A stretch of 63,952 nucleotides of DNA, filler included, from Octopus bimaculoides (Eukaryota): the NCBI RefSeq assembly GCF_001194135.2. It is 7 parts of 7 records of this genome, joined end to end, with 100 filler letters (N's around TTAATTAATTAA, not from the genome) between each part and the next. Parts side by side here need not be neighbours in the genome. Positions count along the whole stretch, not along the records: positions 9,818 to 20,237 come from NW_026296920.1; positions 20,338 to 33,716 come from NC_068984.1; positions 33,817 to 39,157 come from NW_026307674.1; positions 39,258 to 54,488 come from NC_068986.1; positions 54,589 to 59,859 come from NC_068994.1; 2 more parts are not named here. One strand, 5' to 3'. The notes below the pieces were generated by a model that worked only from the letters and a program-made list of their open reading frames with translations, searched no databases and was not told the DNA's origin. Of the stretch, positions 14,775-59,698 are shown one piece after another. Position 1 is the first letter of the stretch, and every line of letters begins with the position of its first letter. A program made the translations under genes and the position numbers.

Positions 14775-15309
14775 CCTTCGGTATGTAAGCACCATTATCG
14801 GTGAGGAACTTATTTAAAAGTTCATATATATTTATAAACATAATTAAGGGATCAGCAAACATTTGCTTCACCATATACCGAAGTTCAGAAATAGCAGCTA
14901 AAAAAGCTGAGACTCCAACAGATAGCATTACTTGTAACTCACAAAGGCAAAAACAAGAAGAAAAAACAATGAAAACTAACCATTCCGAAGTTAATCGTAG
15001 ACGCGTTTCTGGATTATGAGTGATAATACTCAATTTCCTTCATCAATACGATATTCCAGTAGTAAATTCGACCATGCTAGCAAACTGAAAGCATAACCGA
15101 ATCTACCTCGGTCAGCCAGTCTACTATCTTCTCCTCAAGAAATTACCATGTGCGTCACAAGCGATACCGCAGAGAATTTGCGTTTACTACCAGGGAGTGA
15201 ATAATTATTACAAATTAAAAGGGTGAAGGTTTATCAATTTATTAATTTATTAATAAATCAACAATTAATAATTTTTACCAAGCCCTTCGGTATGTAAGCA
15301 CCATTATCG
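14775..15309 (-). mobile_element. Penelope-like ~509 bp unit with terminal direct repeat
   Basis: CCTTCGGTATGTAAGCACCATTATCG at 14775-14800 and 15284-15309; contains an HHR motif. Confidence 0.6.
14994..15052 (-). ncRNA. Type I hammerhead motif (C3 mutated to T)
   Basis: ATCGTA-TTGATGA-A-GGA-AAT-TGAG-TATTATCA-CTCA-TAA-TCC-A-GAAACGCGTC-TACGAT: 6 bp stem I, palindromic stem III, GUC site. Confidence 0.75.
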
Positions 15310-15311
15310 TA

Positions 15312-15500
15312 TTGTACAGACAAAAAGGTGATATTTCGAACGCAGTACGGACGTGAAAACAGCAGAAAGATTGGGTATTATTAACCTCACTTATAAGACG
15401 GGAAAATAGTTGCCAACAAACAGCCACGAGGCTCGAACTTGCACCACTCGGATACCGGATGAGGACTCCACCGTTAAACTAAACTGTCCACTGACAACAG
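15312..15500 (-). mobile_element. tRNA-derived SINE (family D), left copy
   Basis: Head GGACAGTTTAGTTTAACGG, B-box-like AAGTTCGAGCCC; body homologous to 15610-15782. Confidence 0.7.
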
Positions 15501-15609
15501 CCTCTCTTAAATTAAGCGCTAAATACATAACTTTTCTTTGGAATGCAGCAACAACAAATGTAAACAAACTTATATTTTGTTTTTAGAAGCGTCTGTATAA
15601 TACAGGAGA

Positions 15610-15782
15610 TTGTTGTCGGCGGGCAGTTTAGCTTAATGGTAAAGTATTCAGCCGGTATTCGACAGGTGTGGGCTCCAGTTCCGTAGTTGTCTGTTGACCA
15701 ACTTTTTCCGTCTTATAAGGGTAATTACACCCAATCTTTCTGCTATGTTGCGCTCGAAATATTACCTTCTTGTCTGTACAAT
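15610..15782 (+). mobile_element. tRNA-derived SINE (family D), right copy
   Basis: Head GGGCAGTTTAGCTTAATGG; shares CCGTCTTATAAG, ACCCAATCTTTCTGCT and TTGTCTGTACAAT with the left copy. Confidence 0.7.
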
Positions 15783-15989
15783 GGTTTACCAGTAACTTTA
15801 TGTGTGTGTGACAGAGAGAGGATACACATGTATTAACATGCATATGTAAAAACATATGGGACACTCTCACAGGATCCCTGTAGTCTTCGTAGTTGCTAGC
15901 CATTTTGCTTGCTGCCAGTCTTACATTTAGATACTTCTGGTTTTTGTACATCTTTTTTTTTTTTCAGGCGCAGTTCATGACCCGAATAA

Positions 15990-16214
15990 GGCGGCGAACT
16001 GGCAGAAATGTTAGCACGCCAGGTGAAATGCTTAGCGGTATTTCGCCCGTCTTTAATGTTTTGAGTTCAAATTCCGCCGAGGTCGACTTTACCTTTCATC
16101 CGTTCGGTGGGGGGATAAACTAAGTACCAGTTGCGTACTGGGGTCGATCTAATCGACTGCCCCCACCTACCCCCAAAAATTTCGGGCCTTGTGCCTAGAG
16201 TAGAAAAGTAGAAA
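15990..16214 (+). mobile_element. CORE-type tRNA-derived SINE (family A)
   Basis: GGCGGCGAACTGGCAGAA head, GAGTTCAAATTCC B box, central GAGGTCGACTTTACCTTTCATCC...ACTGGGGTCGAT, tail CGGGCCTTGTGCCTAGAGTAGAAAAG. Confidence 0.85.
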
Positions 16215-16634
16215 AGAAAAGACGTCATGACCTGAGTATCTTGGATCCAAATTCAGCGGCGACCTTTTTACTTACAGTGATAAGTATATCATACACGCCT
16301 CCAGAAATACCTTCGTTTCTTCAATTTCCTTGCTCATGGGGACAAGATGAACTTTATGTGGGCATAGCTGTAATTCCTTCGGTCATACGTGCGGCTGTAT
16401 CCTTCATTGAGTCCTGACCGGGTCTAAGAGATGGAATGTTCTTCCTACCATACTATATGTCATCAATGCTCACCACATTTTCCCGTCTTTTAAAGGGATT
16501 TTCTAAACTGTTTTCACAGCCACCCTGCGTTCGAGAATTCCTTTATTTGCTGTCGACTACCGAGCGACGGCGGCGGTGGTGGTGGTGGTGGCAGCGGCGG
16601 GGATAGCGTTAAACTGGTCAATGGATTAAGTCGG

Positions 16635-16815
16635 TCAACGGATTAAATCTAACACATAAAGAGTCGGGAGTTGAGGCACCCCGTCCGATTCGCTACTCAT
16701 TCTGCTGGTCCATTGCCCTAGAAGGATGAAAGATAAAGTTGACTTGATGGAATTTGAACTCAGAATCCAAGGCATTTTGGCCGCTGCTATAACGACTCTG
16801 CCATTTTGATGCATG
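16635..16815 (-). mobile_element. Degenerate family A SINE
   Basis: GGCAGAGTCGTTA...CTGAGTTCAAATTCC...ACTTTATCTTTCATCC on the minus strand. Confidence 0.65.
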
Positions 16816-16839
16816 CTGCTGCGACTATTTGTACTGTTG

Positions 16840-17985
16840 TTGTTGTTGTCGTTGTTACTGCTGCTGTTGCTGCTGCTGTTGTTGTTGCTGTTCTTCTTCT
16901 TCTTCTTCTTCTTCTTCTTCTTCTTCTTCTTCTTCTTCTTCTTCTTCTTCTTCTTCTTCTTGTAATTTAACCCCAAACTAGCCTCGTTCAAACACACCTA
17001 TGATTTACAACCAAATTCCAGATCCCAGACTTTTTGTATATCTAGAACTACATTGACTAAAATTTCCTTCCTCTTTTAAGACTGTAGGATGGGATTTGAG
17101 AAAATTTGGCTATTTCTCCCAATTTTTCAATTGCAAAGATCCTACATCGTTTTCGTTCATTTTTCTTATTATTTGGTTGGTGGGGATGCTTATGTTGATG
17201 TTGCTATTGCATTGGAATCCAACCGTAACCACCTCCACATCTATATGGGATGGTGAAAACAGCATTATTTCTTTTAAGAGGTTAGAGTATTATTTGAGTG
17301 AGATTTGACTGCTCTTTCTAACAAGTCGTCTGGCCACGTACAAGGACCCTTGTTGATGTTGCTATTATCGTCAGTCTTGATGCTATTGTTGCTATTGTTT
17401 TTAATGTGATTATTACTTTCATTGTTGCTATTGATGTTGTTCTTCCTACCTATGTTGTTAATATAGTGTTATCGATACTCTTGCGGCTGTTATTATCGCT
17501 GTTGCTATTTTTGCCCTTATTTTTACATTCTTAATGTTGCTATTGTTGTTCCTACTTATGTTGCTAACATTATTATCGATGCTCTTGTAACTGTTATCGC
17601 TGTTGTTATTTTATCCTTTTTTTTGTTGCTATTTTTACCTTCTTTACTGTTACTATTGTTGCTATTGCTATTCTTGCTGTTCCTATTTATGTTGCTAACA
17701 TATCGCTATCGATGATGCTCTGTTGCTATTTTTGCTCTTATTTTCGCCTTCTTCACTGTTGTTGTTGTTGTTTATGTTGCTAGTGTTACGTTGTTATTCC
17801 CACTGTTGTTGCTATAACTGTTATTTCTGATGCTAATGTTGTTGTTATTCCTATTTATATTATTATTGTTATGCTGTGATCGACGCTATTGTCGTTGCTG
17901 CTGCTCGTATTTTTGCCGTCGTTGCTGCTGTTGTTTCTGTTTTTGCTGCTGCTGCTGCTGCTGCTGTTGTTGTTTACACTATTGT

Positions 17986-18017
<32 letters not shown>

Positions 18018-18245
18018 ATGCTGCTGATACTGCTGTGGTTGCTACAGTCAGTGTGGTTAGTATTAATTATATGATGTCATGCAATCATTGTGGAAACTTA
18101 AATGGTCGTGTTTACGCTTTGTATAGAGACACACACACACACACACACACGCACTCGTGCGCGCACACACACACACACACATATGTGTTGGAAGCAGACA
18201 CATATGTGCATATACAAATATTAGAGAGACGCACATATTATAAAC

Positions 18246-18283
<38 letters not shown>

Positions 18284-18810
18284 CACAGACATATGGATTG
18301 CACATGTGGACATAAAAACACGTCTATATAATCGTAGACGCAGATATTAGAAATGCACACGTGCACTCATACACTCTCACTCACACATTGTAAACACACA
18401 CATATTATAAACATACAAACACTGAGTATATAAGCACGCACACACACACACACATAAACATCTATACAAATTATACATACACACATACACACATGCACAC
18501 ACACACACGCAAACATACACTCGTGCACAGACATACATGAGTATGCACAAGCACAAACAAGAAGAAAAGTAGATGAATGACTAATATTGTATGTCCATAG
18601 AAATACTTAGGAACACACACGCACACACACACACACACACAAACACACACAAACACACACAAACATACAACACATCGTTTACTCGCACACACACATAAAC
18701 ACACACAAACATACGACACATCGTTTACTCGCACACACACATTTACACATGCATACACACAACCCACATCGCACTAAACACAATACTAAACACACACTCA
18801 CACACACTTC
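16840..18810. repeat. Block of simple repeats: (TTG/CTG/TTC)n, decayed (TGT/TAT/GCT)n and (CA)n, with intervening unique sequence
   Basis: Direct reading; explains the poly-K, poly-L, poly-C and poly-A ORFs in the track. Confidence 0.9.
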
Positions 18811-19339
18811 TACAACACATATGGAACACCTCACAGCGGTCCCTCAATCTACTGGAAATAGCAACCAAATTCTTTCAAATAACAACCCCACCGTCTTAAC
18901 AGGAAGGTCACATTGCCTAGTGTGGTCCTAGAAATACAGAGATATGTCTAGATATGTGACTATATGCATGAGAATGCATACATAAAACATACAAATCTGC
19001 ACATACATACATACATACCCTGTTGTTGATGTTGAAATTCCAATGAAGGTGCCTTGGATCTGGGTTAGAAACCGGTTCTTTCTCTATTGGCAAGAAATCT
19101 TGAAATAAACTGAATAATGACATACATACATACATACATACATACATACATACATACATACATGCATACATACATACATACATACATACATACATACATA
19201 CATACATACATACATGCATACATGCATACATACATACATACATACATACACACATATCGCTAGATTCGAGTGTGTCTCCAAATTTAGCTGACTCAGTAGC
19301 GAAAACTGCGGAAAGCATCTAACTCAAAAACATTTTAAA

Positions 19340-20110
19340 ATTGCAATTCGCAAAAAAATTTGCTACTTTCTCGAAATTTTCGTTGAGCGACAGACTATTC
19401 CAACAAGAGCGAGAAAAAGTCCGACCGATCAAATGTTTAAAGTTATCAACGATGTCGCTGGAGAGCACATGGAATCATGTGATGTTAATTACTGGAATGT
19501 TAATACTCTTATACACCCAGCCGCTATTACTCTTAAAGAACACCTAGGAGAAATCTACAGTAAACAAGTAACGAAATTACTAAACGGAAACAACCTAGAT
19601 GGAAAACAAAACTTGAAGAAAACATCAATAACGTGCGCCGCCATATCGGATGGTTAACTACAACAATAAAATTCAAGGAGAAAATGAGTTTACATCTCAC
19701 TAACTCTACCTTAGACAAAAATTAATGTAACTTTATGGCAACTCTTCACACCGAGCTCTTGAGGGAAAGTTAATCATTTTAAAACATGAACTCAGGACGG
19801 TGAGCGAGAAACTTCGCTATCGAATGCGAATTTTTGAACGAGCCAGTATCAATTGCAAATTTGCTTCCAACCCACAAACATTATACAGAGAGATGAGAAA
19901 GGAAAACATTACCATTAAGAAAGATCCCTCCTAAGAAGATCTACAATAATTGAATCACTAGGTTTTGTTAGTAAATGCTTAAAGAAGAATCTGGATAATT
20001 TGAGATTTTCAGAAAGAGAAATCGACCGGCTAATTCGTACATTACAAGTGCAATCTATGAGTGGAACAATAAAAATATGCAAGACTTTACTCAAGTTCCA
20101 AATGTGGATT
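19340..20110 (+). mobile_element. Decayed R4/Dong-like LINE: N-terminal part joined to the C-terminus
   Basis: LIHPAAITLKEHLG; LKHELRTVSEKLRYRMRIFERASINCKFASNPQTLYREMR; then IIIESLGFVSKCLKKNLDNL...QSMSGTIKICKTLLKF. Confidence 0.7.
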
Positions 20111-23844: not shown

Positions 23845-25104
23845 TGAACGGTGTTGGAATATTCTTGAGATTGTAAATATATATATAGTTTTGGGGTGAA
23901 ACTTATTCCAACGGGTCAGTTTCTTTCTTTGTTGTCTTTAAGTAAGGCGTCGGCGTTCCTTGCCAAATAGAATACTTTTATTTATTGTGTATAGAGCTGC
24001 TTAAGGCTGACCCCTTTCAACCCCTTTTTATTTTTTTATTTTTTCGTTGACCCCCTTTCAATTACTTTTTTTTTTTTTGCGGGGTAAAATATGCCTTTCA
24101 GTTCTTTTGTGCACGCTTCATTTTGGTTGTGTTACCGTACGTCTCTCTATGTATACTGCTTCTTATAAAATTTTTCCGACACTTATTTCAGTCACCTGAA
24201 CATGGTCATACTGGGGCACATATTTTATACGAATCTTTGCTGGGTTTATATCGCGTCTGGCATTTTTGCGTTTAGTTAGTTATTTCATCGTCTGCGAGAC
24301 GAGTGAAGGCAAAGTTTTTTAAGAATTATAAATATATATATATATATATACGTGTTTGTGCGCAAGTACTTGCTTGTGAGTGTTTATATAAATATACCTA
24401 TAAACACGCGCACACGCACACACATGTATATATATATATATATAAATATATAAATGTCTATGCATACAATTGTGTATATATGTATGTGTATGTGTGTTAT
24501 GTTGTGCGTGGGAGATTGTGTGCGCTTATATCATATACATTTAGGTAGATTGGTAGATAGCTAAGGGTATATGTATGTGGTATGTCGTGTACGTTGCTGT
24601 TTTTATTAGTTTCTATGTGTGTGTATGTGTACTTATACAGGTGTGATATTACTCTGTGTTATGGTGCCAGTTGTGGGCAAGTTGTCTCCGAAATGTACAC
24701 AGCACACACAAACGGTGTATAATTGCACTAGTGAACTTCCACTAGATGTCTATACATATATATATATACATATGTATACAACTTGTAAATACATATATGC
24801 GCTGTATATTTACTTGTTACAGAGTGCTTGTTAATGCGCGTGCCTCTGTGTGTGTGTATGCGTGTGTTTTTGCTTTGTGTGGGAGTATAAGTTACAATGC
24901 TTTATGGAATGTGTGTTTGCTGTGAATTTGTCTCTTTTCTTTATTCGATATGTGTGCAGCGGGGGAGGGTGAAGGCGTGTGAGTATGTGTGGGATGTGGG
25001 TGTGGGTGTGCCCGTTGCCAACAAATAGATGATTTATTGATTACGAAACGCAATAGTCATGTAGAATTTTATATACATATATATGTATATATATATATAT
25101 ATAT

Positions 25105-29914: not shown

Positions 29915-29916
<2 letters not shown>

Positions 29917-29955
29917 TCACGTGATTTCACTCTGCTATTAGTTCCTCAGTGACAG
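29915..29955 (-). ncRNA. Type I hammerhead core lacking the 3' strand of stem I
   Basis: CTGTCA-CTGAGGA-ACT-AATAGCAG-AGT-GAAA-TCACGTGA-TA, followed directly by (CATA)n. Confidence 0.65.
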
Positions 29956-30050
29956 AAGACAAGCAGCACAATAACAGCCGAATCTAATACACCTGCTTGT
30001 CGTTCCTACACCTGTCTTCGTCTTTTGTTTCTATAAGTTTGAACTATATA

Positions 30051-33195: not shown

Positions 33196-33553
33196 ATCAA
33201 AATAAGCAACAAGGATATCCAGAGGTAATGCAGTACGATCGTTTCAGGTAACTCCATTTAATTGAACAATCATTACATCAATTTAAAATGCAGAACAATC
33301 CTCAGCTGCACAAAGACATAGAATTTAATTAAATTAGAACAGATGGACACATTAGTATAATTATACCTAAAATCTCCAAGAAGTTAAGGAGATAGATAAA
33401 GAACATGCTGGCTTCACTCCAGTATAGAAGTTACTAAGTTATCAAGAAGATATACATTGTTACAGACTCTGCCTGTCACTGATTTTTTTTGTTTTTGTTT
33501 CATGAAACGATCGTACTGCATTACCTCTGGATATCCTTGTTGCTTATTTTGAT
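33196..33553. mobile_element. Penelope-like remnant with a perfect 51 bp terminal inverted repeat
   Basis: 33196-33246 is the exact reverse complement of 33503-33553; 256 bp spacer; HHR in the left arm. Confidence 0.75.
33228..33311 (-). ncRNA. Type I hammerhead motif with a long, partly decayed stem II
   Basis: GTGCAG-CTGAGGA-[53 nt including the CATTTTAAATTGA/TCAATTAAATG hairpin]-GAAA-CGATCG-TA-CTGCAT; GUA site. Confidence 0.7.
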
Positions 33554-33816: not shown

Positions 33817-34848
33817 ATGACAGATCTTTCGGACTTTCAAAGAGGTCAAATTGTTGGTGCTCATATGGTAGGTGCTAGCGTAACAAAAACAGCTGAAATG
33901 TTTGGTGTATCAAGAAGTACAGTCTTGAAAGTAATGACAGGCTTTGAGAAAGAGGGAAAAACCTCCTCTCCGAAACAAAATTCTGGAAGAAAACCAAAAC
34001 TTTCAGATAGAGACCATTGGACTCTTATGCAAATTGTTAGAAAGGATCACAAAAGTACAGCTCCCAAAATTACTGCAGAGCTTAATAACCACCTCAAGAA
34101 CCCATTTTCCACAAAAACTGTTCACTGGGAGCTGCACAAAGCCAGATTTCACAGTAGAGCTGCAATCAGAAAACCACTACTTACAAAAACAAAAGTGGCA
34201 AAGCATTCAGAGTGGAGTGAAAACCTACAGAATTGGTCCCTAGAGCAGTGGAAGAATGCTATTTTCTTGGACGAGTCATCCTTTACCTTATTTCCAACTA
34301 CTGGCCAAGTATATGTGTGGAGACAGCCAAAAGAAGAATTTGACCCAGACTGCCTTCTTCCAACCGTTAAACATGGAGGAGGATCTGTGGTGATCTGGGA
34401 GGCTATATCTTGGAAATCCACTGGCCCAATGGTTTCCCTTCATGGCAGAATTAATAGTCAAGATTATTTAAGCATTTTATCTGATCAAATTCATCCTATG
34501 GTTGCCAAACTCTTTCCAGAGGGAAACGCAATCTTTCAGGATGATAATGCACCAATTCACACAGCTAAAGTTGTTAGTGAATGGCACAAGGAACATTCTA
34601 GTGAAGTTGAACATCTTATCTGGCCACCACAGTCCCAAGATCTCAATATTATTGAACATTTATGATGCATTTTAGAAAAACAAGTAAGTAGTCGATATCC
34701 TCCACCATCATCACTACAAGAACTGGAGACTGTTTTAGCTGAAGAATGGACAAAAATTCCTTTGGAAACAATTCAAACTTTGTATGAGTCCATATCTCAT
34801 AGAATTCAAGCTGTTATTACTGCCAAAGGTGGTCCTACACCATATTAA
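33817..34848 (+). pseudogene. Tc1-like transposase, 343 codons with one in-frame TGA (34663-34665)
   Basis: HTH region, FLDESSF, KHGGGSVVIW, FQDDNAPIH and WPPQSQDLNIIEHL*; after the stop, 60 more codons ending KGGPTPY*. Confidence 0.9.
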
Positions 34849-34900
34849 AATAAATTTGTTTGAAATTTTAAAGTGTTTCCATTATTTTGTCCAACCCCTG
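33817..34900 (+). mobile_element. Tc1-superfamily transposon with DD36E spacing; left end in gap
   Basis: Right TIR GTGTTTCCATTATTTTGTCCAACCCCTG|TA at 34873-34900. Confidence 0.95.
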
Positions 34901-35178
34901 TATACATAAGTATTAGTGTGAAACAGTGATGAGAAATAAACAAACTTTAGGTTAGTTCAAATGTGATGAGACATATTTTAATTTCTAAAAGGAATTTCAC
35001 TGCATTTACTGTGGAGAAAAAATTTCTTACTTGTTTTGTGCTAATACTTATGTATTTGTTTTGACTGGGTGGCCTGCAAGCATAAATTTAGACACTAGCA
35101 TTATTAAGTGATTTGTTATAAAACTACAGCTTTCTAATCAGCTCAAGCTTATCCTCTACTGAGGTACTTTTGGTATCG

Positions 35179-35219
35179 TCTACTGAAGAAAGCATAATGA
35201 GCCAGAAATGCACTAGGGG
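35179..35219 (+). ncRNA. Degenerate type I hammerhead, unit 1
   Basis: TCTA-CTGAAGA-A-AGC-ATAATGA-GCC-A-GAAA-TGCA-C-TAGG; the U of NUH appears deleted. Confidence 0.6.
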
Positions 35220-35523
35220 TCCAACAGAGGGTATCACTAAACTAATAATGGTGTGTTTACACCTTTACCATAAGTGAGAAATTTTTCTCCATGGTAAACT
35301 GTAGTGAACTTTCCTTAAATATGTCACAAACATTTCCTTAAAATACGTCATAAACATTTGAACTAACCTAAAATCTGTTTATTTCTCATGACTGCTTTGC
35401 TCTAATACTTGTATATTTGTTTTTGACTGGGTGGTCTGCAAGTGCAAATCAGTCACTAGTATTGACTGATTCATTATAAAACTACAGTTTTATAATCAGC
35501 TCAAGGTTATCTCTCTTTGGTAT

Positions 35524-35567
35524 CCTCTACTGAAGAAAGCATAATGAGCCAGAAATGCAGCTGAGGG
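35524..35567 (+). ncRNA. Degenerate type I hammerhead, unit 2
   Basis: CCTCTA-CTGAAGA-A-AGC-ATAATGA-GCC-A-GAAA-TGCA-GC-TGAGGG; the U of NUH appears substituted. Confidence 0.6.
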
Positions 35568-35960
35568 TACCACTGAGCTGACAATGGTGCATTTACTTCT
35601 TTACCATAAGCAAGGAATTTTTTTTTTCTCCACAGTAAACTGCAAATTTTCTTAAGAAGTGAAAATGTGTCGCAAACATATTTGAACTAATCTAAAGTTC
35701 GTGCATGTGCATGTGTGTATGTTTCTGTTAAAATATTGTGTTTAAGTGTTTAGATGTATTAGAAGTATTAGGTAAGTGAATAGAGATGTTAAAAGAATTA
35801 TGTGTAGGTGTAAGCACATTAAAAGGATTGTGTGAAAGTATATACATATAACATTTGTGCGTAGGTATATAGAGGTTTAAAAGATTCTATGTTGGATGGT
35901 TATATGTTGAAAGGTTTCTATGTTGAGTGTGTATATATTATGTACTTATGTAGATGCATG

Positions 35961-39257: not shown

Positions 39258-39597
39258 AAAATACAAAGACCTGGAAATAGAGATAACTCGAATGTGGAGT
39301 CTAAAAACAGAAACAATTCCTATCATAGTAGGTGCCTTAGGTATAATTAAAAAATACTCAGACAAATACATAACAAAAATACCAGGACTTACAAATATAT
39401 GTAACATACAGAAAATTGCACTACTGGGTACTGCACACATTCTACGCAAAACACTTTCAATACAGTAAACATAAAAGCACCACAGCAAACCACAGCACAT
39501 ACCCAAGGCGCACAGAGCTGCGCTCGGTAGTGAAGTGAAAGCACGTTATAAAAATAAAACTACTGAACAATAATAATAATAATAATAATAATAATAA
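39258..39597 (+). mobile_element. R4/Dong-like LINE 3' end
   Basis: KYKDLEIEITRMWSLKTETIPIIVGALG...LLGTAHILRKTLSIQ*, then 3' UTR and (TAA)n. Confidence 0.9.
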
Positions 39598-39599
39598 GG

Positions 39600-40620
39600 G
39601 CAATAGCTATAAAGTTCTCCAGCACTACACAGAAGAATATCTTCACAAATGGATTAATTGATCGACAATGTGGCGAAAATCCCCAAGTGACTGAGTACAG
39701 GTAAAACGGTTCTTTACCAAAGGGGCTCAGTAAAGGCAATCACGTGGATAATTATCAGCTTATCTCCTGCCTACCTTTGATGTTGAAGTGGATGGGAGAA
39801 ATAAAATCTAATTGTGTGTATAACTTCCTGGAAATGAATGACAAAATGCCAGTGGAACCGAAGTGGTACCGAAGGAAATCCGAGGGACAAAGATCAACTT
39901 CTAACAGGCATATTGGTAGTGAAAGATTGAAAGATAAGACATACTAATCTGGTTACGGCGTGGATCGATTATAAGAAAGCGTATGACATGGTTCGCCATT
40001 TCTGAATCTTATATAGTCTGGTGTTGGCACCGGTGTTTGATATCAGCTTAAAATTTATCAACAAATCAACGAAGAACTGAAATACAGAATTAACATTAAG
40101 TGGACAGTTTTTGACGAGGGTTAAGATCAAAAGACGCATGTATCAGGGAGACAACCTCATGCCATTGCTGTTTGTGATTTGTATGATATTCCATGATACC
40201 CCACCCACACACAGATAATAGGGAAAGTGACATGTGAGAAAACCCTTGCTAAATTTGTTGCCTTATTGATAAAGGACATGAAAAACCTCCCAATGGCAAA
40301 TACTCGAAGAGAGCTAACAGTGCCGATGTTGGCAAAGCACTTACCCATCAATGGTTAGTGGCTTCTTGCTTAAAATCAGAAGCAGAAGGGTTTATCATAG
40401 CATCCCAAGATCAATGCCTACCTACAAGAAACTACCAGGCCAACATATTAAAGGACAGCAGCTCTCCAACATGTCTTGTACGTCTACAACGAAATGAAAC
40501 CATTCAACATGCAGTCTCCATGTGAAGTATTCTTACGCCTACAGTGTATCTAAACAGACATGGGAGAGCACCATAATATATTCGCTGGGTAATCTGCAAA
40601 AACCTGGTCGAGATTATAAA
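39600..40620 (+). mobile_element. Decayed R4/Dong-like RT and zinc-finger fragments
   Basis: NYQLISCLPLMLK, GTKDQLL, AWIDYKKAYDMV, YQGDNLMPLLFVICM, LKSEAEGFIIASQDQCLPTRNY. Confidence 0.85.
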
Positions 40621-41102
40621 AGAAGAAATATCCTTTGCATGCAAGCAAGGCGGACAAAAACGTATATAAAACATAAATCTCTTTAAGTCTGGAACTATAA
40701 AATATTACAAATGTTATGAATAATCTATGTCTATAGAATAAAGTTTAAAATGAGTTTGGTTCAGCAGAATGTGAGATTTTAATGATTGTTTTGAGATTTT
40801 ACAGCGAAAGAATGTTTTTAGCTTTCGTGGTAAAATATTATTCCGCATTTCAATATTGTTATAAATAAATGTTTTTGGCAAATTGATACTCGACAAAAAA
40901 AAAGTGTTTCAAAATTCAAGTCAACGGTATCTCTTGTTTGGTAGTTGTGAGGGAGAGAATGGTGTCAGATAATTTCAAAGAATCAAGTAGGCCGGTGATG
41001 ATGAAATATCTTTTGGAACTTGATAGCAGAGTTGTGTATGATGACGGAAATGATCAGAAGAGAATGTTATCGCAGGGTAAGAACAATATATATTTCTATC
41101 AT

Positions 41103-41385
41103 TATTATTATTATTATTCAGCCTTGGGTATGTGCTGTGGTTTGCTGTGATGCTCTTATGTTTACTGTATTGAAAGTGTTTTGCGTAGAATGTGTGCAGT
41201 ACCTAGTAGTGCAATTTTCTGTATGTTATATATATTTGTAAGTCCTGGTGTTTTTGTTATGTATTTGTCTGAATATTTTTTTATTATACCTACTATGATA
41301 GGAATTGTTTCTGTTTTTAGATTCCACATTCGAGTTATCTCTGTTTCCAGGTCTCTGTATTTTGAAAGTTTTTCCATTTCTTTTA
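41103..41385 (-). mobile_element. R4/Dong-like LINE 3' end, second copy
   Basis: KYRDLETEITRMWNLKTETIPIIVG...LLGTAHILRKTLSIQ*; (TAA)n on both sides. Confidence 0.9.
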
Positions 41386-43009
41386 TTATTATTATTATTA
41401 AACGAAAGTAATTTTCATTCAGGATATGAAGACAGGTCCACGAGCAAAGCTTGCTGTAATATAGATGTCTTGCAAACAACTTGCACATGCAATTGCTACC
41501 GTGCTCCCAGTCGAGGGCTCCGCACCGGAAGCCAGCAACTGTCTGGGATCACCAGGAGGGAATGCGCGCCGTTTCAAGGCCTACCTCTCGACGGCATCAA
41601 TGCACACCGACCCTCCTCACTGATATGAAGCCCCACTTGCCAGAGCAACTGTTTATAAGATAAAGCTCAATATTTTAGCCATCGCCAATCGTCTCTTTTT
41701 TAGTCAAATCTGTCATAGGCCCCTGTGCTTCCTGAAACAAATTTCTCCACCAAGTGTGCTTAAGCCTCCTGAGATCTTTTTTCGAAGTCTACTTTTTGAG
41801 ATCTGTACAACTTTTCTAGTTACACTCCGTTATATATGTTTGGGCCAAGAACCTTTTGATGAGAGGATCTCTTTGTTGCTTGGCAAACCTTGAGTTTTGC
41901 TGCGCATGCGCATTAAATTTTAATGTTGTAACTCACAGCCGCTGTTTACAGACGTGTTCAGTGTTTAAATAAAGTTACAATTAATTGATTGTATGGATTG
42001 AAACTAACTACAAAATATAAACTCAGTATAAATAAAAAAGGAGACATGCAATGTAAGTCAATTTGATAATCAGTAATTATCAGGAAACGTTCTTATATTA
42101 TTTGGACTTCCTATGTATCATCAGCGACATCTGTTAACTAATGTTTGACTGTTGCTTCCCGGGTATGATCTACTAGTTGTAGACTTCTTTCGAATTTTTA
42201 AGGCGACAAAGCCGAACTTTTTATAGTTAGTGCACAAATTTGCAGTTTAATAATGAGCATATGTGACACACTACATAATATACAAAGCGTTAGTTCAAAG
42301 AATTGCTCAATATTCAAATACATACCGATAATGCATCAATACATATATTCACATATCTTTTGAAGGTTATTAACAAAGCGTGGTAATAATGATAAAATGA
42401 TGGTAGATGTGATAGTAGTCCCGTATTGTGGATTGGCGGATGCATGCATTGCAAAAACAAACCTAGATTTTCATTTCTGAATTGACCGCTTTTGGTTTTT
42501 GATCCTGATTAGAATATACATACAGTCTAATTTTTGTCAAAAGATGTTTAACGCTAAATCCGTCTGACTGAGTTGATTCTGTGACAGATAAAAGCACACA
42601 CATTATATCTATACTGATTTGATATGACTCAGTTCAAATCTATTAAAGAAGTGCCATCTATAACTGAGATTTTGGCTACTTTCTTCAAAGTATGCTGCAA
42701 GATACTAATTCAACATAGTAACAGCAAAAAAACTATCAAGTTCACCTCGTGGTAGATGAAGAAATGATTAGTTTGTGAATGACTTGTTTTCAAATTAATT
42801 GTCTTGGAATAGTTTCAAGAAAAGATTTTCTATCGGTACGAATGAGTGATGGACAGCTGAAGCTTTTAGAGATCTTCCAGTATGCCATATATTCAGATGA
42901 ATGGAAGTTGTTGTTTAGAAAAGAATCGAAGCATTACATAAAATGATTCCAGATCAGTTGCCTTTCAAAGTTTCATGTCTGTTAATATTGTTGTTGTTCT
43001 TGTTGCGGC

Positions 43010-50779: not shown

Positions 50780-52073
50780 TTAGGTTGGCAATTAAGTTCC
50801 CGTCGTATTTTTTTTTACTTAAATTTTTAAAAAGTTTTAATAAAAAATAACAACTAATTAATCAATAATATATTCAACCTTGTTGTTTACAACTTCTTCC
50901 CAACTTTCAACAATATTATCAACACCTCGTTGGTAGAAACCACCCGATTTTGACTCGAAGAATTGCTCCAACCAAGCTCTCAATTCTGCATTAGGATTGA
51001 ACGTAACTCCGCGCATAGCATTTGAAAGAGATCGAAAGAGGTAGAAATCTGTTGGTCCCAAATCAGAATACGGCGGGTGTGGCAGCACTTCCCAGCCATG
51101 CGTTTAAATAGCTTCCTTGGTCATATTGGCGATATGAGGGTGGGCGTTGTTGTGCAGTAGAAGAACTCCATGCTGCAGTAGAAGAACTCCAATTTGGACT
51201 TCTCTCTTGAATAGCCGTGTTGTGTCGTTCCATCTGTTGAACATAGATTTCCGCGTTGACCGTTTGGTTCTGTTCAAGCAATTCGAAATGGATAATCCCT
51301 TCCCAGTCTCACTGTACACACAGCATCGTTTTTCGCAGATGAATATCTTGTTTCACGCGTGGTGTCGCTTGTTTACCGCGGCTAAGCCATTCCTTACGCT
51401 GCTTCATATTGATGTACCGGCACCATTTTTCGTCACCAGTAACGATGCGGTAAAGAAATCGTTGCTTTTGTCCATGAGTTGAGCGGTGACGTGCAAGCAA
51501 ACCAAGGGAGATTGTGGCACGTTGATTTTTGTTGTTGTCACTTAAAGCATGTAGAACCCATGCTCCATATTCTGAACCTTTCCCATCGAGTGAAGATTCA
51601 CCTCTATAGCAGTGAAGGAGCATTCCATTTTCTCTTTCAGTTGCCTTGTCGTTTGACGAGAATTTTCGTGAAAACGTTGGTTTATTCGCTCTTAATCGAA
51701 CTAAATTGGACGGCCAGAACGAGGTGCGTCTTTGAGGTCAAAATTTCCATTTTTGAACTTGGCATACCAATCACGAGCGGTTCTTTCAGCAACGGCACCG
51801 TCTCCATACACAGCAAAAATGTCGCGAGCAGCTTTTGCGGCCTTAGAACCTTGATTAAAAGCGAAAAGGATGTGTCGGAAATACTGTCTATTCTTCACTT
51901 GGCATTACATTTTAATGATTTGAAAATAAACAAAAATTAACTAAAATTAACTAAAATGATACAAAATGATACAAAAATAGACTCCTCGAAAAAGGTATAT
52001 TCCAAAATTTAAAAACGCATTAAATTCTGGAATTAAAAAAATGAAAGCAGCAGGAACTTATTTGCCAACCCAA
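50780..52073 (-). mobile_element. Full-length (~1.3 kb) decayed mariner
   Basis: TA TSDs; TIRs TTAGGTTGGCAATTAAGTTCC / GGAACTTATTTGCCAACCCAA (19/21). Peptides RSGRP, IVTGDEKW, HNNAHPH and HPPYS-DLGPTDFYLF in shifted frames. Confidence 0.95.
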
Positions 52074-53436: not shown

Positions 53437-54443
53437 TATGTGTGTGTAGTGGGAGTGTTGTGTGTGTGTGTATGTGTGTTTATGTCACTAATGTAAACAC
53501 TTGATTTTGCTGGAGGTGTGAGACATTCTGCAATATTAGCAATTAAATTACAACTATGTGTACACTGTTTGAACACATGAGAAAAGTGAACAAGAATAAA
53601 CACAAAGAACACGTATACACTAATCGCATCGTGCACTTATTTAACTTTAGTATTACTATGGAATTACATTTATGACAACAATTCATATTCTACTCAAAGT
53701 GCATTTGAATGCTACACATACAACACACAGCATTGATAATGGAAATGTATTAACAGGATTTATCAACTTTTATGATCGGAATACATTATTACCAACATTT
53801 ACGATGCTTTTTATATTCGACAATGCAATGAGAAATGGCTTCTCTAATTTCATTAATATTGGCATTTCAGATGTATCTGTAATATGAATGGATTATGTCG
53901 ACAATTATAAACAGAAAAATTTCAATAGAATATACATAAGTACGTAGCACACACACCAACACTTCGACGCACGCAATCACAAACACACGCTCACACACAT
54001 GCACACAGACACAGACACACGTACCTATATAAACATTAGTGTATGCGGGTACTCTGAAGATACATCACAGAATGACGACCATACCCTTCATTCTTACGAA
54101 CGAGCTGTTCTTTGCCGAGGTACAGCGTTCATTCAGCCGCCACTGTGCCAAGTGTTTAGTGAAGTCATGACGCTGGAGTACAGCGGGATATGAAGCGTGA
54201 TCGAAGGAGTTCAATTGAGACAATGTTGCTTCTTACATTCATGCTGAGCGGAGTAACCCTTGAACATCAAGTGTCAGAAGCACCTAGCTATATCAAGAGA
54301 GTAACCTCAACGCACCCACAGGTGTGGCGTCCATGGTTGTGTAGTCTGGTAATGAAATATACACTATGACTCGAGTTAGCAATTCACATTCACAATAATG
54401 GGATGGGATAGCAAACCAAAAGTCCTCGGATTCCACGAAACAG

Positions 54444-54488
<45 letters not shown>

Positions 54489-54698
54489 NNNNNNNNNNNN
54501 NNNNNNNNNNNNNNNNNNNNNNNNNNNNNNNNTTAATTAATTAANNNNNNNNNNNNNNNNNNNNNNNNNNNNNNNNNNNNNNNNNNNNAATACTCTATAA
54601 TTCATAGTGTACAAATAATAATTCGTTAACAAGAATAGCATTGACAGCGACTTCGAAGTTTCCCCCAGCTAGACCACTATCGGACTGTCCGTTGTATA

Positions 54699-57600
54699 TC
54701 TATCTATATATATAAAAGAGATTTTGTGTGCGTGTTTGTGTGTGTGGGGGGGGGGTGCGTGTGTGCGTGAGTGCATGTCAGTGCGTGTGTGTGTGAGTAT
54801 GTGTGTGTGTGTGCGTGCGTGCGTGTGTGTGTTCGCGCGCGCTTATGTTTTTTATGCATTCAAAAACTGAGTTGCCGATTTTGACGTATGGAGAATCAAA
54901 AGATTCAGCAACTTCTCGGCTAACAACTAAACTTTATTTTCATTTGCATATTTGCATTACAAAAAATTAACATTATAATCTTTGCAAGTCAACTATCGTA
55001 AAAGACATTTTATATCACGACGACGACGACGTCACTTTTTTAATGAGTGTGTATGTGTCAGTCAGTGTATTGTGTCCTTGCACGTTCCTTACTCACGTTA
55101 GGCCAATGACTGACAAGTATGTGTTTGAGGGTGTATGTGTGTGTGAGTACACATACATTTTTGTGACAACACACGTCTTAGTAAATGTATGTCACTGTAT
55201 GTCAGAGTCAATGTGGTGCGAATGGATGTCTGATAATTTTTATGAAACGCGCCGATTTTGAAAGAGTTTAGTTTAATTGCCACCTGGATGTTGAAGGAAC
55301 AACACCGTTCACCTTGAAGTACCACTGTTTGGATTCTTGTTTTCATCATGGGGAGTTGCGGTTTAAGCAACTAATTTGTTGAAATATTATTCTGGTTTTT
55401 ATAAGCAGCATGAAGTTTAGCTGATTTGACAGTACTCACAACACTCGCAAATATATCTGAAAAAGAATGTTATTCAGGTTATTATGACAAATTCAGAAAC
55501 TTGGCGAAGAAGAAAGCCTCAGCGGCTGTTTCAATGTAATTTCAGAAATGTTATTCCAGTCTTTATAACCAGTTTGAAGATAATGTTTTTTAACATTCTT
55601 AGCGTCCTTGTCGTATTCCTGCTCTGCTGCTTTATCAGTGAGAGTATTCAATGCCGCGAAAACTTTTTACTGCGTTAGTCAGTATTTATTCTACAGCCTA
55701 TAACTCTACATAGATAAAATACATAGTAAGTGATGTCAAATGAATTTATGTCTTGTTACATGCATCTGTCAGTAAATGTTTTAAATTAATTTACGTTCAC
55801 AACAGTCACATATTCCTTTCTACACACTTTGTTCAGCGTTCGTTCAAAAATTGTAAAATAATAAATTATTTTTGTATAAAAATTTGAACTATACCTTCTG
55901 AATTTTCTTGGAGCTTGGCTTTCTTCGCCATCACATTCAATTCCAAATTTTATAACATTTACTACATTGTTCCAAATAAATGCTGTACTTTGCTACATTG
56001 GTGACGCATATTAATTTTGGAAGGTTCATTTACTTTTCGTTTGAGTTGCAGAAAAAGGTTTTTAAAAAGATCCCATGTATCATGGTAAGAGAAACAAATT
56101 CATAAATACGGTGTTGAATTTGGTTTCACAATGCAAAAAAGTTAAGGGCGATTTAACTGTTATTTTTAGCACATCACCGTTGGGATCTTTTTAAAAATAT
56201 TTTTCTATTACTGAAACGAAACATAAATGAATCTCAAAAAAATTTTTTATACCATAACTATGCTACAGAAAGTATATTTGCACCTATATTGACTACATTT
56301 CGTTTCGCATGAACTGCGTGTGTGTACGCNNNNNNNNNNTTTCTTTTTGTCTTTTGTTTTGGTCACCGGGTATTAAAGTAAACATCAATCATTTGAATAA
56401 TGTTTACTTTAAAGTAAACATTAACCGTAATTTTTGCTAAGTTGGTGACTTTCTGACGCTGGAATATTTCTTTCCGAAATATTCCCTAAAAAAAATTTTT
56501 TATACCATAACTATGCTACAGAAAGTATATTTGCACCTATATTGACTACATTTCGTTTCGCATGAACTGCGTGTGTGTACGCTTTGCTGTTTTCAATATT
56601 ATTAATTCTATGTGTCTGTGAGTATGTGTTCCTGCGTTCGTTACGTCTATAGTAAACTATAGTAAAGGACATTTTACGTCATTTTAATAGACCCACATCT
56701 AATGAAGTAGCCATCCTTATGGTAGGTGATCCCCATGAAAATCGTGATATTCTTATTCGTGCTCGAGATAACAGCCTTAAACCTGTTTCAGAGACTCAAC
56801 CCTCTTATTTTTTAGAATCGACAAGATGGATATCATTTCAATATTCCACAGGTTGAACCTGCAACAAGAGAGCCAATTACAAACAAAAGGCGTCGTCAAA
56901 TGACTTCTATTCTTACTAAACGATGTTAAGATCAGAATAATCAAATCAATTACACATGTATCGTGATCTATTTCAGCAATACCTGGTTGATGTGTATGCT
57001 AAAGTTGGGAGTCAGCGTCTCCTCTACTTTCGTAACGATCAGTCAAAAACAGTTAAGGTCTAAAAATTCGGCTCATCTCCAAGATGCTCTGAGGACAGAT
57101 GGTGATCTTCAAAACATGGGGCAACTTCTAATTCACCCATTATCATTCACAGGTGTTCCTCGATATATGCACCAACGAACACAAGATGCTATAATCTATG
57201 TCAGGTCATATGGTAAACCAAATCTTTTTGTCACTTTCACCTGCATTCCTAAAGGGGGGAAATAAAATCTAACCTCCATCCAGTTTTGCATCTACTGGTA
57301 TTGCAGCTACCCTCCTCAACGGAGGAAGAAATGCTCGTTCTATGTTCAAGGTCCCTCTACACCTTACAATGAAGGAATCTTAAATGTGAAACATTTCCAA
57401 AAACTCTGCAATGGCAAGTTCTCCAACAAACTTGCCTCATCATTTGAGATGAGTGTACTGTCACATCGTGGACCTCCAGAGGTACCTGACCGTACCCTCC
57501 AAAACATAAAAAGCAATCACACGCTCATGGGAGGAGTAACAGTTTTTCTTGTAGGAGATTATCGTTAAACGTTGCCAGTTCTCCCCCAAAGGATCAAAAG

Positions 57601-58570
57601 CTGATGAGGTCAATGCATGCTTAAGAAAATCGTACCTTTGGAGACATGCGAAAAAACTTCATCTTATAAACAGCGTCAGAGTACTTCTACAAGGTGATCA
57701 TACGAGCTTCTTAAGATTGGTAATGAGATAGTAACATTCAACTCAAGACTTCAGCTACATGAAATTACATGCAGTCAAATAATACTTTCTCTTAGTGATC
57801 TTATGGATAAAGTATTTCCTAATTTATCAATTACACTGATCTAAACTGACTATGTGAAATAGCTATACTAGCCCCAACTAATGAAATGGTTGATAAACTC
57901 ACTCATGAACTTCTTCAAAAGTTAATAGCTACATCAGATATGACTTTTCGTTCAACTGAAAACAGTCGATCAAGATCAGGTTGTTCAATACACTGTTGAA
58001 TTTCTGAATTTCTTAAACCCACTGGGATGCAGCCGCAGACCCATCTCACCTGTGTAATGGAACTCGCTTAATTGTTACTTCCATGATGCTCCATGTCCTA
58101 CAGGCAACAATCATAACAGGTAGTCACAAAGGAGAAAATGTCTTTATTCCAAAAGTTCCTCTCATAACTACAGGTCTTCCATTTCAGTTTAAGAATTTTT
58201 TTCAGTGTAACTAAGTTTTGGTATTTCAATTAACAAATCTCAGGGTCAATCCCTCAAGGTAGTTGGACGTGATCTTTCTACGACACATTTCTCCCACAGC
58301 TAAGTCAACTTGCTCGCGAGTTGGAAGCAGTAACAATTTATCCATTTCGAAACGAACCAAAAATTACACAATGAATATTGTTTACCCTGAGGCACTTCAA
58401 GGTTGGCAGTTTTTCAGTTCTAAATTCTATTATCGTTACAATTTGGGTATCTTTTAATAAAATATAGATATTTTGAAATAATTATGAGAATATATCTTTA
58501 TATTTCCTGTTCACTAATCTGAATAAGAACAGCGGTATATAATATATAATAATTTTATGTAGGCACCTAG
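54699..58570 (+). mobile_element. Deleted, decayed Helitron (3' end approximate)
   Basis: A|TCTATCTATATATATAAAAG 5' end. Rep remnants LFQQYLVDVYAKV and YGKPNLFVTFTC. PIF1-like helicase remnants ASTGIAATLLNGGR, VGDYR, ILAPTNEMVD, CNGTR, SINKSQGQSL and NIVYPEAL. Confidence 0.85.
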
Positions 58571-59048
58571 TTAAAGCCTGTCCACAGTGTTCGACTATCT
58601 AATGTCAACAACTGTACAGCGGTATATGTCACTAGATTTACTTCAAGAATTGCTTTGTGTCCATAGAGTTCATATAAAAAGATGAGGGAAAGAAAATTAT
58701 ATCGATTCTTTATTTTTTTTATTCAAAACCACTACAGTTGTTTCGACTCATCATGCACCTGTACCTTAGAGGTTATTCTGTACAATCCATTATCATTCAT
58801 TATAGGTGCAGATGCGTCCCATCGAATGACTTTTAAAATAAGTAGCTCGCTTTTTACATGCCGTTTCGCTTATTTTTAGTTCGTGTAGCATTCCATCCGC
58901 CTCCATAATGAATTGAGATACAATGAAAGAATTCTTCCCATATAAGCAATAAACCCATAAAAATATATGATCCAGTATACAAGGATAAAAGATTAATGAA
59001 TCATAAAATAAAATGAAATAAAATGCACATGAGATCAGAATAGAACAA

Positions 59049-59091
<43 letters not shown>

Positions 59092-59160
59092 GGTTTTTAA
59101 CTTTTAAATTTTCATATTCAAAGGAGACAGAGACTTCAAACTCGATATATCGATTTATTC

Positions 59161-59246
59161 ACCACTCTATGTTAACATTTCTGTGCCAAACTTATCCAAT
59201 GACTGGTCCATTGGATTTAGACATTTGGCACTTCTTCAGGAGTGGT
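59161..59246 (-). ncRNA. Type I hammerhead motif, left arm
   Basis: Mirror image of 59613-59698; inner stem ATCCAATG/CATTGGAT fully Watson-Crick. Confidence 0.8.
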
Positions 59247-59612
59247 TACCATCCGAACAAAACACGAAAAAACACATACATAACTATTATTAAATTCTTA
59301 AAATCCCGTTAGATTTCATCTTTGTTATTATAGGGGAGATAACTCCTTAATTTTCTATTTTTATTGCTCTCCTGTGAATATGTATGCATATGTACGTATG
59401 CATGTGTATACGAGTAAAGGAACGGGTAATATACTATAGTAAAAAGAAGTAAATAAATTAATTAATTAATCTAGTGGAAATTCACAGGAGAGCAATAAAA
59501 ATAGAAAATTAAGGAGTTATCTCCCCTATAATAACAAAGATGAAATCTAACGGGATTTTAAGAATTTAATAATAGTTATGTATGTGTTTTTTCGTGTTTT
59601 GTTCGGATGGTA

Positions 59613-59698
59613 ACCACTCCTGAAGAAGTGCCAAATGTCTAAATCCAGTGGACCAGTCATTGGATAAGTTTGGCACAGAAATGTTAACATAGAGTGGT
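59613..59698 (+). ncRNA. Type I hammerhead motif, right arm
   Basis: ACCACTC-CTGAAGA-A-GTGCCAAA-TGTCTAA-ATCCAGTG-GACCAGT-CATTGGAT-AAG-TTTGGCAC-A-GAAA-TGTTAACA-TA-GAGTGGT; predicted AUA cleavage after 59691. Confidence 0.8.

What the first reader, a model, noticed from the sequence alone, without database searches (positions are those of the whole stretch)
14994..59698. Recurrent hammerhead variant with an A·A mismatch closing stem II in three unrelated repeats
Seen: 15.0 kb UUGAUGA-A-GGA..UCC-A-GAAA; 35.2/35.5 kb CUGAAGA-A-AGC..GCC-A-GAAA; 59.2/59.6 kb CUGAAGA-A-GUGCC..GGCAC-A-GAAA. The stems differ completely, yet each has an unpaired A on both sides. The 33.3 kb motif has U...U at these positions and the 29.9 kb motif has a normal A-U pair. 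Established: positions 10.1-11.1 are normally a Watson-Crick pair (usually G-C) stacking on the tandem G·A pairs, and Penelope-associated minimal HHRs tolerate some core variants and act as dimers. Inference: three independent random decays to A·A are unlikely, so this may be a lineage-level HHR subclass, either active through an extended purine stack or attenuated to limit cleavage. I cannot tell whether it is already catalogued. This is the best candidate for a novel system in the window.
Basis: partly seen in the sequence, partly recalled or inferred. Interest (0 to 1): 0.75.

Follow-up and report, generated by a model that had tools for sequence, protein, structure and literature searches.

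The report
Mismatch-closed hammerheads in Penelope-type repeats
Three unrelated jumping-gene repeats carry a hammerhead self-cutting-RNA motif with an A opposite an A where a base pair usually sits, but sister repeats put almost any two bases there, so this is likely a loosened position of an already known ribozyme type rather than a new A·A class, and cutting is untested.

Summary
The motifs are real. A·A is the family state, not decay: 34 of 34 copies in family A, 32 of 32 in C, 28 of 37 in old family B. The three families share no alignable sequence. A is a Hydra-clade Penelope-like element; B (~331 nt) and C (~550 nt) are ORF-less head-to-tail units, retrozyme-like. In all three, A·A sits on a G-C pair and stem III is a palindrome (dimer type). 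A·A is not a fixed subclass signature. C's sister subfamily has A-U (25 of 64). One superfamily shows C·A 48, A-U 15, A·A 12, U-A 12, U·U 6, A·G 6, G-C 1 in its first 100 matches, while its stems covary. A blind 697-kb sample gave 0 A·A among 14 motifs. Mismatch-closed stem II is already in print: U·U in 14 of 26 Hydra-clade rows and C·A once (Craig 2021), one extra-A row (Cervera 2014), natural U·U (Perreault 2011). Verdict: a variant state of known Penelope/retrozyme hammerheads, probably slow and dimer- or protein-assisted; cleavage untested. The scan noted octopus hammerhead repeats before on other DNA, not this slot.

The parts
14994..15052 (-). Family C type I hammerhead: stem I 15052-15047 / 14999-14994, core UUGAUGA 15046-15040, A·A slot 15039 and 15010, GAAA 15009-15006, palindrome ACGCGU, predicted cut between 15000 and 14999
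14775..15309 (-). Family C ORF-less unit, slightly more than one monomer (26-base terminal direct overlap 14775-14800 = 15284-15309; this copy lacks about 45 bases); retrozyme-like
   Evidence: head-to-tail pair 558 apart on C10
35176..35218 (+). Family B hammerhead copy 1, decayed: core 35183-35189, A·A slot 35190 and 35204, GAAA 35205-35208, C at 16.1
35520..35570 (+). Family B hammerhead copy 2, decayed: core 35530-35536, A·A slot 35537 and 35551, GAAA 35552-35555, G at 16.1
34900..35700 (+). Family B old ORF-less repeat, two head-to-tail ~331-347-base units plus a short inverted 5' piece (34902-35032)
59613..59698 (+). Family A type I hammerhead: stem I 59613-59619 / 59692-59698, core 59620-59626, A·A slot 59627 and 59677, long stem II, palindrome AUGUUAACAU, predicted cut after 59691
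59161..59246 (-). Family A hammerhead, inverted copy: core 59239-59233, A·A slot 59232 and 59182
59076..59783 (.). Fold-back 3' end of a 5'-truncated Hydra-clade Penelope-like element (direct copy plus inverted copy, in AT microsatellite)
33229..33310 (-). Comparison motif, U·U slot (33298, 33246), palindrome CGAUCG, stem II decayed in this copy; relative L207 lies 421 bases downstream of a GIY-YIG frame with a Cys linker
29915..29956 (-). Comparison motif, A-U slot (29942, 29929), palindrome UCACGUGA, 3' strand of stem I missing

Best explanation
The three motifs are hammerhead-ribozyme sequences fixed in three unrelated Penelope-type repeats, and their A·A is one state of a freely varying 10.1·11.1 position resting on a G-C pair; they would likely cut slowly, as palindrome-paired dimers, to release unit-length RNA from tandem transcripts. 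Shown: sequence, family fixation, element type, slot variation, stem covariation. Predicted: the double-hammerhead fold. Inferred: A·A stacks in register as a one-by-one mismatch between A9·G12 and the G-C pair; constraint on the slot is relaxed, so AT bias and CpG loss can settle it on A·A repeatedly; cleavage is slower than with a Watson-Crick pair and may need a second copy or the element's protein; B and C are copied in trans by a Penelope-type reverse transcriptase.
For: Family state: A·A in 34 of 34 (A) and 32 of 32 (C) copies spanning the core, 28 of 37 rows in B, 97 of the first 100 of 273 genome matches for A (counted by eye). Slot variation: C lineage A·A 37, A-U 25, A·C 1, C·A 1 of 64; 12-base-stem superfamily C·A 48, A-U 15, A·A 12, U-A 12, U·U 6, A·G 6, G-C 1 in the first 100 of 2903; 7 of the 12 multi-member clusters hold more than one slot state. 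In 34 distinct 14-base-insert motifs the slot takes 7 states while stem II pairs 3-4, stem III and stem I swap among A-U, G-C, C-G and U-A. Fold: family A's minimum-energy dimer is the double hammerhead (-70.8 vs -58.4 kcal/mol for two monomers); family C's is within 0.3 kcal/mol of the minimum. Context: family A lies about 555 bases downstream of a GIY-YIG frame (L018, L232) whose RT-thumb and endonuclease motifs read like Hydra-1_Obim and Hydra-1_Amil in Craig 2021 (compared by eye); B and C close on themselves without an ORF. Print: U·U, U·C and C·A slots tabulated; natural U·U, reported as the most active mispair; Penelope hammerheads cleave weakly as dimers or only with the element's protein.
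Against: No cleavage data. RNA-seq of three runs from one study shows low, two-strand coverage and no pile-up of ends at the predicted cuts. A·A persisted across two diverged subfamilies of A (19 of 21 rows of the second), which fits some selection, and G-C or C-G at the slot is nearly absent in one superfamily (1 of 100), so the slot may not be fully neutral. The G-C under the slot was forced by my patterns, so its invariance there is not independent; U·U families have U-A or C-G there. Family B's first stem II pair is A·C in 12 of 37 rows. No autonomous partner was identified for B or C.
Confidence: 0.68

Rival explanations
1. Double-bulge variant: the 5' A is the known unpaired H between positions 9 and 10.1 of Penelope minimal hammerheads, the G-C is the true 10.1-11.1 pair, and the 3' A is an extra base looped out between C11.1 and G12. 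Same biology, different geometry.
For: G-C lies directly inside A·A in all three families. The published consensus is CUGANGAH + G..C; the 5' base is A, C or U in 99 of 100. The one extra-A row of Cervera 2014 Fig. S3 is drawn this way.
Against: Sister subfamilies hold Watson-Crick A-U or U-A at the same two positions, which points to substitution within a pair slot. Bulge-only motifs mostly have a 2-base stem III whereas all 36 in-register clusters have a longer palindrome (Fisher p = 0.0009 on only 5 bulge clusters, targeted sample), so the two look like separate architectures. U·U families lack the G-C.
Confidence: 0.3
2. A·A-specific subclass: the two adenosines are selected to extend the purine stack under A9·G12 and define a lineage.
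For: A·A is fixed in three unrelated families here and appears over G-C in 10 of 41 clusters; 6942 vs 1867 control matches genome-wide; kept across two subfamilies of A.
Against: Those counts come from A·A-directed searches; 0 of 14 in a blind sample. Close relatives replace it. Carriers are a Hydra-clade element and two unrelated ORF-less units, not one lineage. Part of the excess looks like CpG decay of A·G.
Confidence: 0.1
3. Attenuator: the mismatch is selected because it slows cutting, keeping multimeric transcripts intact long enough to serve as more-than-unit-length templates; any weak pair will do, a strong one is disfavoured.
For: 72 of 100 mismatches and 1 of 100 G-C in one superfamily. 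B and C insertions are longer than one unit. Uncleaved RNA was the main template for a Penelope RT in vitro. Mispairs at this position lower activity.
Against: Other families in the genome carry G-C at the slot; AT bias and CpG loss predict the same skew; no rates.
Confidence: 0.22
4. Non-cleaving relic or binding signal: the fold is kept as a protein-recognition or RT-initiation element and A·A marks loss of catalysis.
For: A Poseidon hammerhead did not cleave without protein, and cleavage was dispensable for insertion in vitro. No cleavage signature.
Against: All catalytic core positions and the UH site are intact in the masters of A and C, and stems covary around them. Fragmented RNA-seq cannot show 2',3'-cyclic-phosphate ends.
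Confidence: 0.15

Closest known systems
Hydra-clade Penelope-like element hammerheads (Craig et al. 2021, PMC8557442, File S2)
   Same: Type I, 3' end of the element, palindromic stem III, one extra base on each side of stem II; U·U in 14 of 26 rows, U·C in 1; C·A over G-C in PLE-X1_cBra. Family A's protein remnants match the clade's motifs.
   Different: No A·A row in that table. Family A has a full G-UGCC..GGCA-C stem plus A·A and a 51-base stem II arm; it is not the listed Hydra-1_Obim, whose hammerhead differs.
Minimal hammerheads of Penelope-like elements (Cervera and de la Pena 2014, PMC4209133)
   Same: Core CUGANGA/GAAA/UH, unpaired H after A9, G-C next to it, palindromic stem III, dimer mode. 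One of 56 rows of Fig. S3 has AGAAA (29th in the extracted order, which would be the Cotesia bracovirus element, i.e. A·A over G-C; row match inferred).
   Different: The consensus has no base between C11.1 and G12, and most rows have a 2-base stem III; the extra base is not discussed in the text I read.
Metazoan non-LTR retrozymes (Cervera and de la Pena 2020, PMC7229834; Li et al. 2026 bioRxiv 10.64898/2026.07.22.740005)
   Same: B and C are ORF-less, low-GC, head-to-tail units with one type I hammerhead per unit.
   Different: Described retrozymes have canonical hammerheads with loop 1-loop 2 contacts, long arrays and abundant circular RNA. Here arrays are 1-2 units, insertions carry Penelope-style inverted copies, C (~550) is longer than the 220-400-base units described, and circles are not shown.
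Natural U10.1·U11.1 hammerhead (Perreault et al. 2011, PMC3088659)
   Same: Stem II opens with a mismatch.
   Different: Pyrimidine mismatch in a rare single case; that search rejected other mispairs at this position.

Membership tests
Type I hammerhead ribozyme | Core C3(U)U4G5A6N7G8A9, G12A13A14, A15.1-U16.1, H17 | tested here: met
   Family masters of A, C and the majority of B; C has U3; both window copies of B lack U16.1
Type I hammerhead ribozyme | Three helices around the core, stem I open | tested here: met
   Descriptor and folding; covariation in related families
Type I hammerhead ribozyme | Watson-Crick pair at 10.1-11.1 (canonical consensus) | tested here: not met
   A·A in register; met only if the G-C one step out is counted as 10.1-11.1
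Type I hammerhead ribozyme | Site-specific self-cleavage | not testable with these tools
   RNA-seq gave no end signal and cannot decide it
Rfam hammerhead families | Match to a curated covariance model | tested here: not met
   No hammerhead model among listed hits; the 35-kb copies were covered only
Penelope minimal/dimer hammerheads | Palindromic stem III allowing a dimer | tested here: met
   ACGCGU, AUGCAU, AUGUUAACAU; dimer folds
Penelope minimal/dimer hammerheads | Unpaired H after A9 with C11.1 directly before G12 | tested here: not met
   An extra A precedes G12 in all three families
Hydra-clade PLE (family A) | C-terminal GIY-YIG after RT, with CxxC and CxH motifs and no CCHH | tested here: met
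   L240, L242, L232; phmmer/tblastn link to Pfam GIY-YIG-positive loci; by-eye match to Hydra rows. Pfam itself did not recognise the two fragments
Hydra-clade PLE (family A) | CxCX5C linker | tested here: not met
   An in-frame AAT (poly-Asn) run lies between thumb and endonuclease in L232, L235, L240, L242; no Cys linker seen
Hydra-clade PLE (family A) | N-terminal RWK and DKT motifs; placement in an RT tree | not tested
   All fetched copies are 5'-truncated or gapped
Hydra-clade PLE (family A) | Insertion in (TA)n, inverted 5' copy | tested here: met
   Window 59076-59783 next to an AT run; inverted pairs in L011, L019, L002
Non-LTR retrozyme (families B, C) | ORF-less head-to-tail unit with one type I hammerhead | tested here: met
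Non-LTR retrozyme (families B, C) | Canonical hammerhead with loop 1-loop 2 contacts | tested here: inconclusive
   Stem II junction is non-canonical; tertiary contacts not assessed
Non-LTR retrozyme (families B, C) | Abundant circular RNA | tested here: inconclusive
   Family C: about 45 reads per million; the back-joint 15288 to 14780 also exists in genomic DNA.

The most novel reading that the evidence does not exclude
Penelope-type hammerheads with a long palindromic stem III form a distinct architecture in which the textbook 10.1-11.1 pair has become a tunable one-by-one mismatch (A·A, C·A, A·G, U·U) over a G-C that takes its job; the slot sets the cutting rate, and so the share of multimeric template, and thousands of such ribozymes per animal genome are missed by searches that demand the pair.
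Probability: 0.22. Interest if true: 0.6.

Novelty: new variant of a known kind. Interest (0 to 1): 0.33.

Why it matters
The 10.1-11.1 pair is the second most conserved pair of the hammerhead, and standard searches reject mispairs there. This genome holds thousands of motifs that break the rule, in natural series that differ only at the slot (A·A vs A-U in family C; C·A, U·U, U-A, A-U, A·A in one superfamily). That gives a ready panel for measuring how the junction tolerates mismatches and whether Penelope-type elements tune their cutting. It extends a known feature; it is not a new system.

Tried and rejected
Rfam scans: no hammerhead model hit. One family for all three repeats: rejected. 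Post-insertion decay as the source of A·A in A, B, C: rejected; it does fit one other family (A·G to A·A). Searching for an autonomous partner of B and C in fetched loci by tblastn, HMM and phmmer: none found within about 1.3 kb upstream; an RT N-terminus upstream of one C copy (L064) is separated by other sequence and was not counted. Pfam on family A fragments: nothing over cut-off. First-look candidate numbers (747, 163, 1199) are not copy numbers and were not used as such. Run search: no indexed holder on record as RNA; 14 'RNA?' contig rows are guesses and only X1 was laid. The depth dip at 14970-15007 coincides with loose ends from diverged relatives and was not read as cleavage; the back-joint was not read as a circle. 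Lunse et al. 2017 (over 150,000 Penelope-associated variants, recalled), Hammann 2012 and Nelson and Uhlenbeck 2008 are not held; any of them may already describe A·A. Paper searches for an A·A or 11.1/G12 insertion found no description (library limited to open papers). Roberts 2023 text gave no value for this pair. Earlier-findings look-ups by words and by sequence were blank. My descriptor found no hammerhead downstream of most GIY-YIG loci (many are gapped or decayed), so no clade-by-slot table is claimed.
Full report
Setting. The window is a pack of seven stretches of a 2.34-Gb, microsatellite-rich animal genome, likely an octopus (inferred from the repeats and from likeness to published Octopus elements). 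The motifs lie in three different stretches.

Observation. A descriptor (core, GAAA, three stems) finds complete type I hammerheads at 15046 (-), 59620 (+) and 59239 (-), each with A at both ends of stem II. The last two are arms of one 700-base inverted duplication. The motifs at 35183 and 35530 are present but decayed: A·C in the first stem II pair and no U16.1. The 33.3-kb motif has U·U with a decayed stem II; the 29.9-kb motif has A-U but no 3' strand of stem I. No Rfam hammerhead model matched. The descriptor is specific: 14 hits against 1.4-2.2 in shuffles and 3 in a reversed control over 697 kb chosen blind.

A·A is inherited, not decay. Searches of the own genome gave 30 loci per family. 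Both As are present in 34 of 34 core-spanning copies of A and 32 of 32 of C (duplicate loci L023 and L068 left out; 1 and 2 partial hits dropped), and A·A in 28 of 37 rows of the old family B (L032 left out as a duplicate). B's majority reads A-GGC..GCC-A with palindrome AUGCAU and site UC, but 12 of 37 rows have A·C at the first pair, at a G-to-A rate seen at some other columns too. With the slot left free, 97 of the first 100 of 273 family A matches are A·A, including 19 of 21 rows of a diverged subfamily. The three families share no alignment longer than 22 bases. In all three the pair inside A·A is G-C.

What the elements are. Family A copies run upstream into a GIY-YIG frame ending about 555 bases before the core (L018, L231, L232) and, in L242, into an RT thumb. 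By eye these match Hydra-1_Obim and Hydra-1_Amil in the supplement of Craig 2021, with the CxxC and CxH motifs that section 11 gives for the clade; the Cys linker is replaced by a poly-Asn run, Pfam does not score the fragments, and no tree was built. Family B is a ~331-base unit whose majority sequence repeats itself head to tail with no ORF. Family C is a ~550-base unit that closes on itself (a direct pair 558 bases apart). Both show inverted 5' copies like Penelope insertions. No partner RT was found for them.

The slot varies. Genome-wide patterns: A..A 6942 vs 1867 control; non-A 5' base with any 3' base 24019 vs 8696; bulge-only form 36375 vs 16124; A with non-A 22615 vs 2985, mostly one large bulge-only family and its CpG decay. 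These patterns overlap and cannot enforce pairing. Tighter ones can be read directly. Family C lineage: 37 A·A, 25 A-U, 1 A·C, 1 C·A of 64, with the A-U set forming its own subfamilies. A superfamily with a 12-base stem II hairpin: 2903 matches vs 0; first 100, counted by eye, C·A 48, A-U 15, A·A 12, U-A 12, U·U 6, A·G 6, G-C 1 (all from contig C1). In 34 distinct 14-base-insert motifs from my loci the slot has 7 states while neighbouring stems swap among pair types. Of 41 clusters from 143 high-scoring hits, 7 of the 12 with several members mix slot states (sample biased towards my patterns). In the blind sample the slot was G-C 3, G·U 3, A-U 1, A·G 1, U·U 1, bulge-only 5, A·A 0 of 14. One family has 4 A·A against 6 A·G rows, as CpG loss would give. 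So A·A is a recurrent minority state of a loose position.

Folding and expression. Family A's lowest-energy monomer is the three-way junction with both As unpaired, and its lowest-energy dimer is the double hammerhead, -70.8 against -58.4 kcal/mol. Family C's palindrome is too short for a hairpin; its double hammerhead is at -30.3 against a minimum of -30.6, and the natural A-U sister at -35.9 against -39.3. Decayed B copies do not fold as hammerheads. Three RNA-seq runs of one study (about 6% of each read) gave 619, 523 and 502 reads on C and 210, 105 and 100 on A of 11.5-12.9 million, on both strands, with no pile-up of ends at the predicted cuts. Reads show an expressed C relative with the 3' A kept and a compensated stem I. 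This shows transcription of some copies, not cleavage or circles.

Print. Cervera and de la Pena 2014 (PMC4209133; main text parts 1-2 of 4 and supplement parts 1-2 of 3 read): minimal Penelope hammerheads have an unpaired H after A9 and G10.1-C11.1, and cleave weakly as dimers; 1 of 56 rows of Fig. S3 has AGAAA, 29th in extracted order, which would be the Cotesia bracovirus element and an A·A over G-C (row match inferred, figure not seen). Craig 2021 (PMC8557442; passages, section 11, supplement part 2 and searches): File S2 lists U·U in 14 of 26 Hydra rows, U·C in 1, A·A in none, and C·A over G-C in PLE-X1_cBra, under the heading 'canonical'. Perreault 2011 (PMC3088659; passages and section 8): a natural U·U, cited as the most active mispair; other mispairs rejected from the search. 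Frangieh 2024 (PMC11167929; passages): a Poseidon hammerhead cleaved only with protein, and cleavage was not needed for insertion in vitro. Cervera 2020 (PMC7229834; passages) and Li 2026 (first fifth) for retrozymes. Passages of PMC6765202, PMC2632901, PMC11014351, PMC6155905 and PMC9901934 added nothing on this pair. Searches found no description of an A·A class. Lunse 2017 could not be read and may cover it.

Mechanism. Tandem or read-through transcripts bring two copies together; the palindromes pair into a shared stem III and each core would cut after H17, releasing unit-length RNA that a Penelope-type RT copies back, often as more than one unit with an inverted 5' piece. The slot most likely stacks as a one-by-one mismatch between A9·G12 and the G-C pair; an A there keeps a purine N7 at the A9/10.1 metal site (recalled structural knowledge, not tested). 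With A·A expected to be weaker than U·U or a true pair, cutting would be slow. Whether the mismatch is merely tolerated or selected as a brake is open.

Verdict. Observation confirmed; interpretation partly supported. New variant state of a known kind. Interest 0.33.

Noticed in passing
L232, L235, L240, L242 (family A ORF): An in-frame AAT microsatellite (poly-Asn, variable length) lies between RT thumb and GIY-YIG domain where Hydra-clade elements have a CxCX5C linker; no Cys linker is visible.
   Followed up: partly
all loci: Bulge-only hammerheads tend to have a 2-base stem III (3 of 5 clusters); all 36 in-register clusters have a palindrome of 4 or more bases. May separate two architectures.
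   Followed up: partly
G000 genome-wide: One bulge-only minimal hammerhead family (A-GGCUG..CAGCC-GAAA-CG) dominates the genome, often as inverted pairs 200-450 bases apart, with heavy CpG decay.
   Followed up: no
L124, L128, L129, L135, L139, L154, L173, L195: U3-A8 core variants (UUGAUAA) lie 180-480 bases downstream of GIY-YIG frames with a Cys linker (Neptune/Nematis-type), some with U·U at the slot.
   Followed up: partly
window 29915-29956 (-): The hammerhead stops exactly at its predicted cleavage triplet and runs into a (TACA)n microsatellite, as if the inserted RNA ended at the cut.
   Followed up: no
window 33817-34665 (+): Tc1/mariner-like transposase frame of about 280 codons just upstream of family B (name from recalled motifs); more mariner-like pieces at 51309-51737.
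   Followed up: no
window 59960-61039 (-): Fragments that read like gag zinc knuckle, protease and RT of an LTR retrotransposon (recalled motifs); only listed.
   Followed up: no
window 12648-13291, 39258-41548, 56930-57568, 9456-9717: Decayed pieces that read like a LINE RT end, a restriction-like-endonuclease non-LTR element, a Helitron, and a zinc-finger tail of an RTE-like element (recalled motifs).
   Followed up: no
window 15622-15692 (+): tRNA-like match just over the Rfam threshold (29.9 bits), probably a SINE head.
   Followed up: no
window 63273-63653: 209-base unit repeated 1.8 times, 81% alike.
   Followed up: no
L033:1-1338 (-): A 446-codon open frame resembling a metallo-beta-lactamase-fold DNA repair nuclease (SNM1B/Apollo-like, recalled) about 100 bases from a family B copy.
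   Followed up: no
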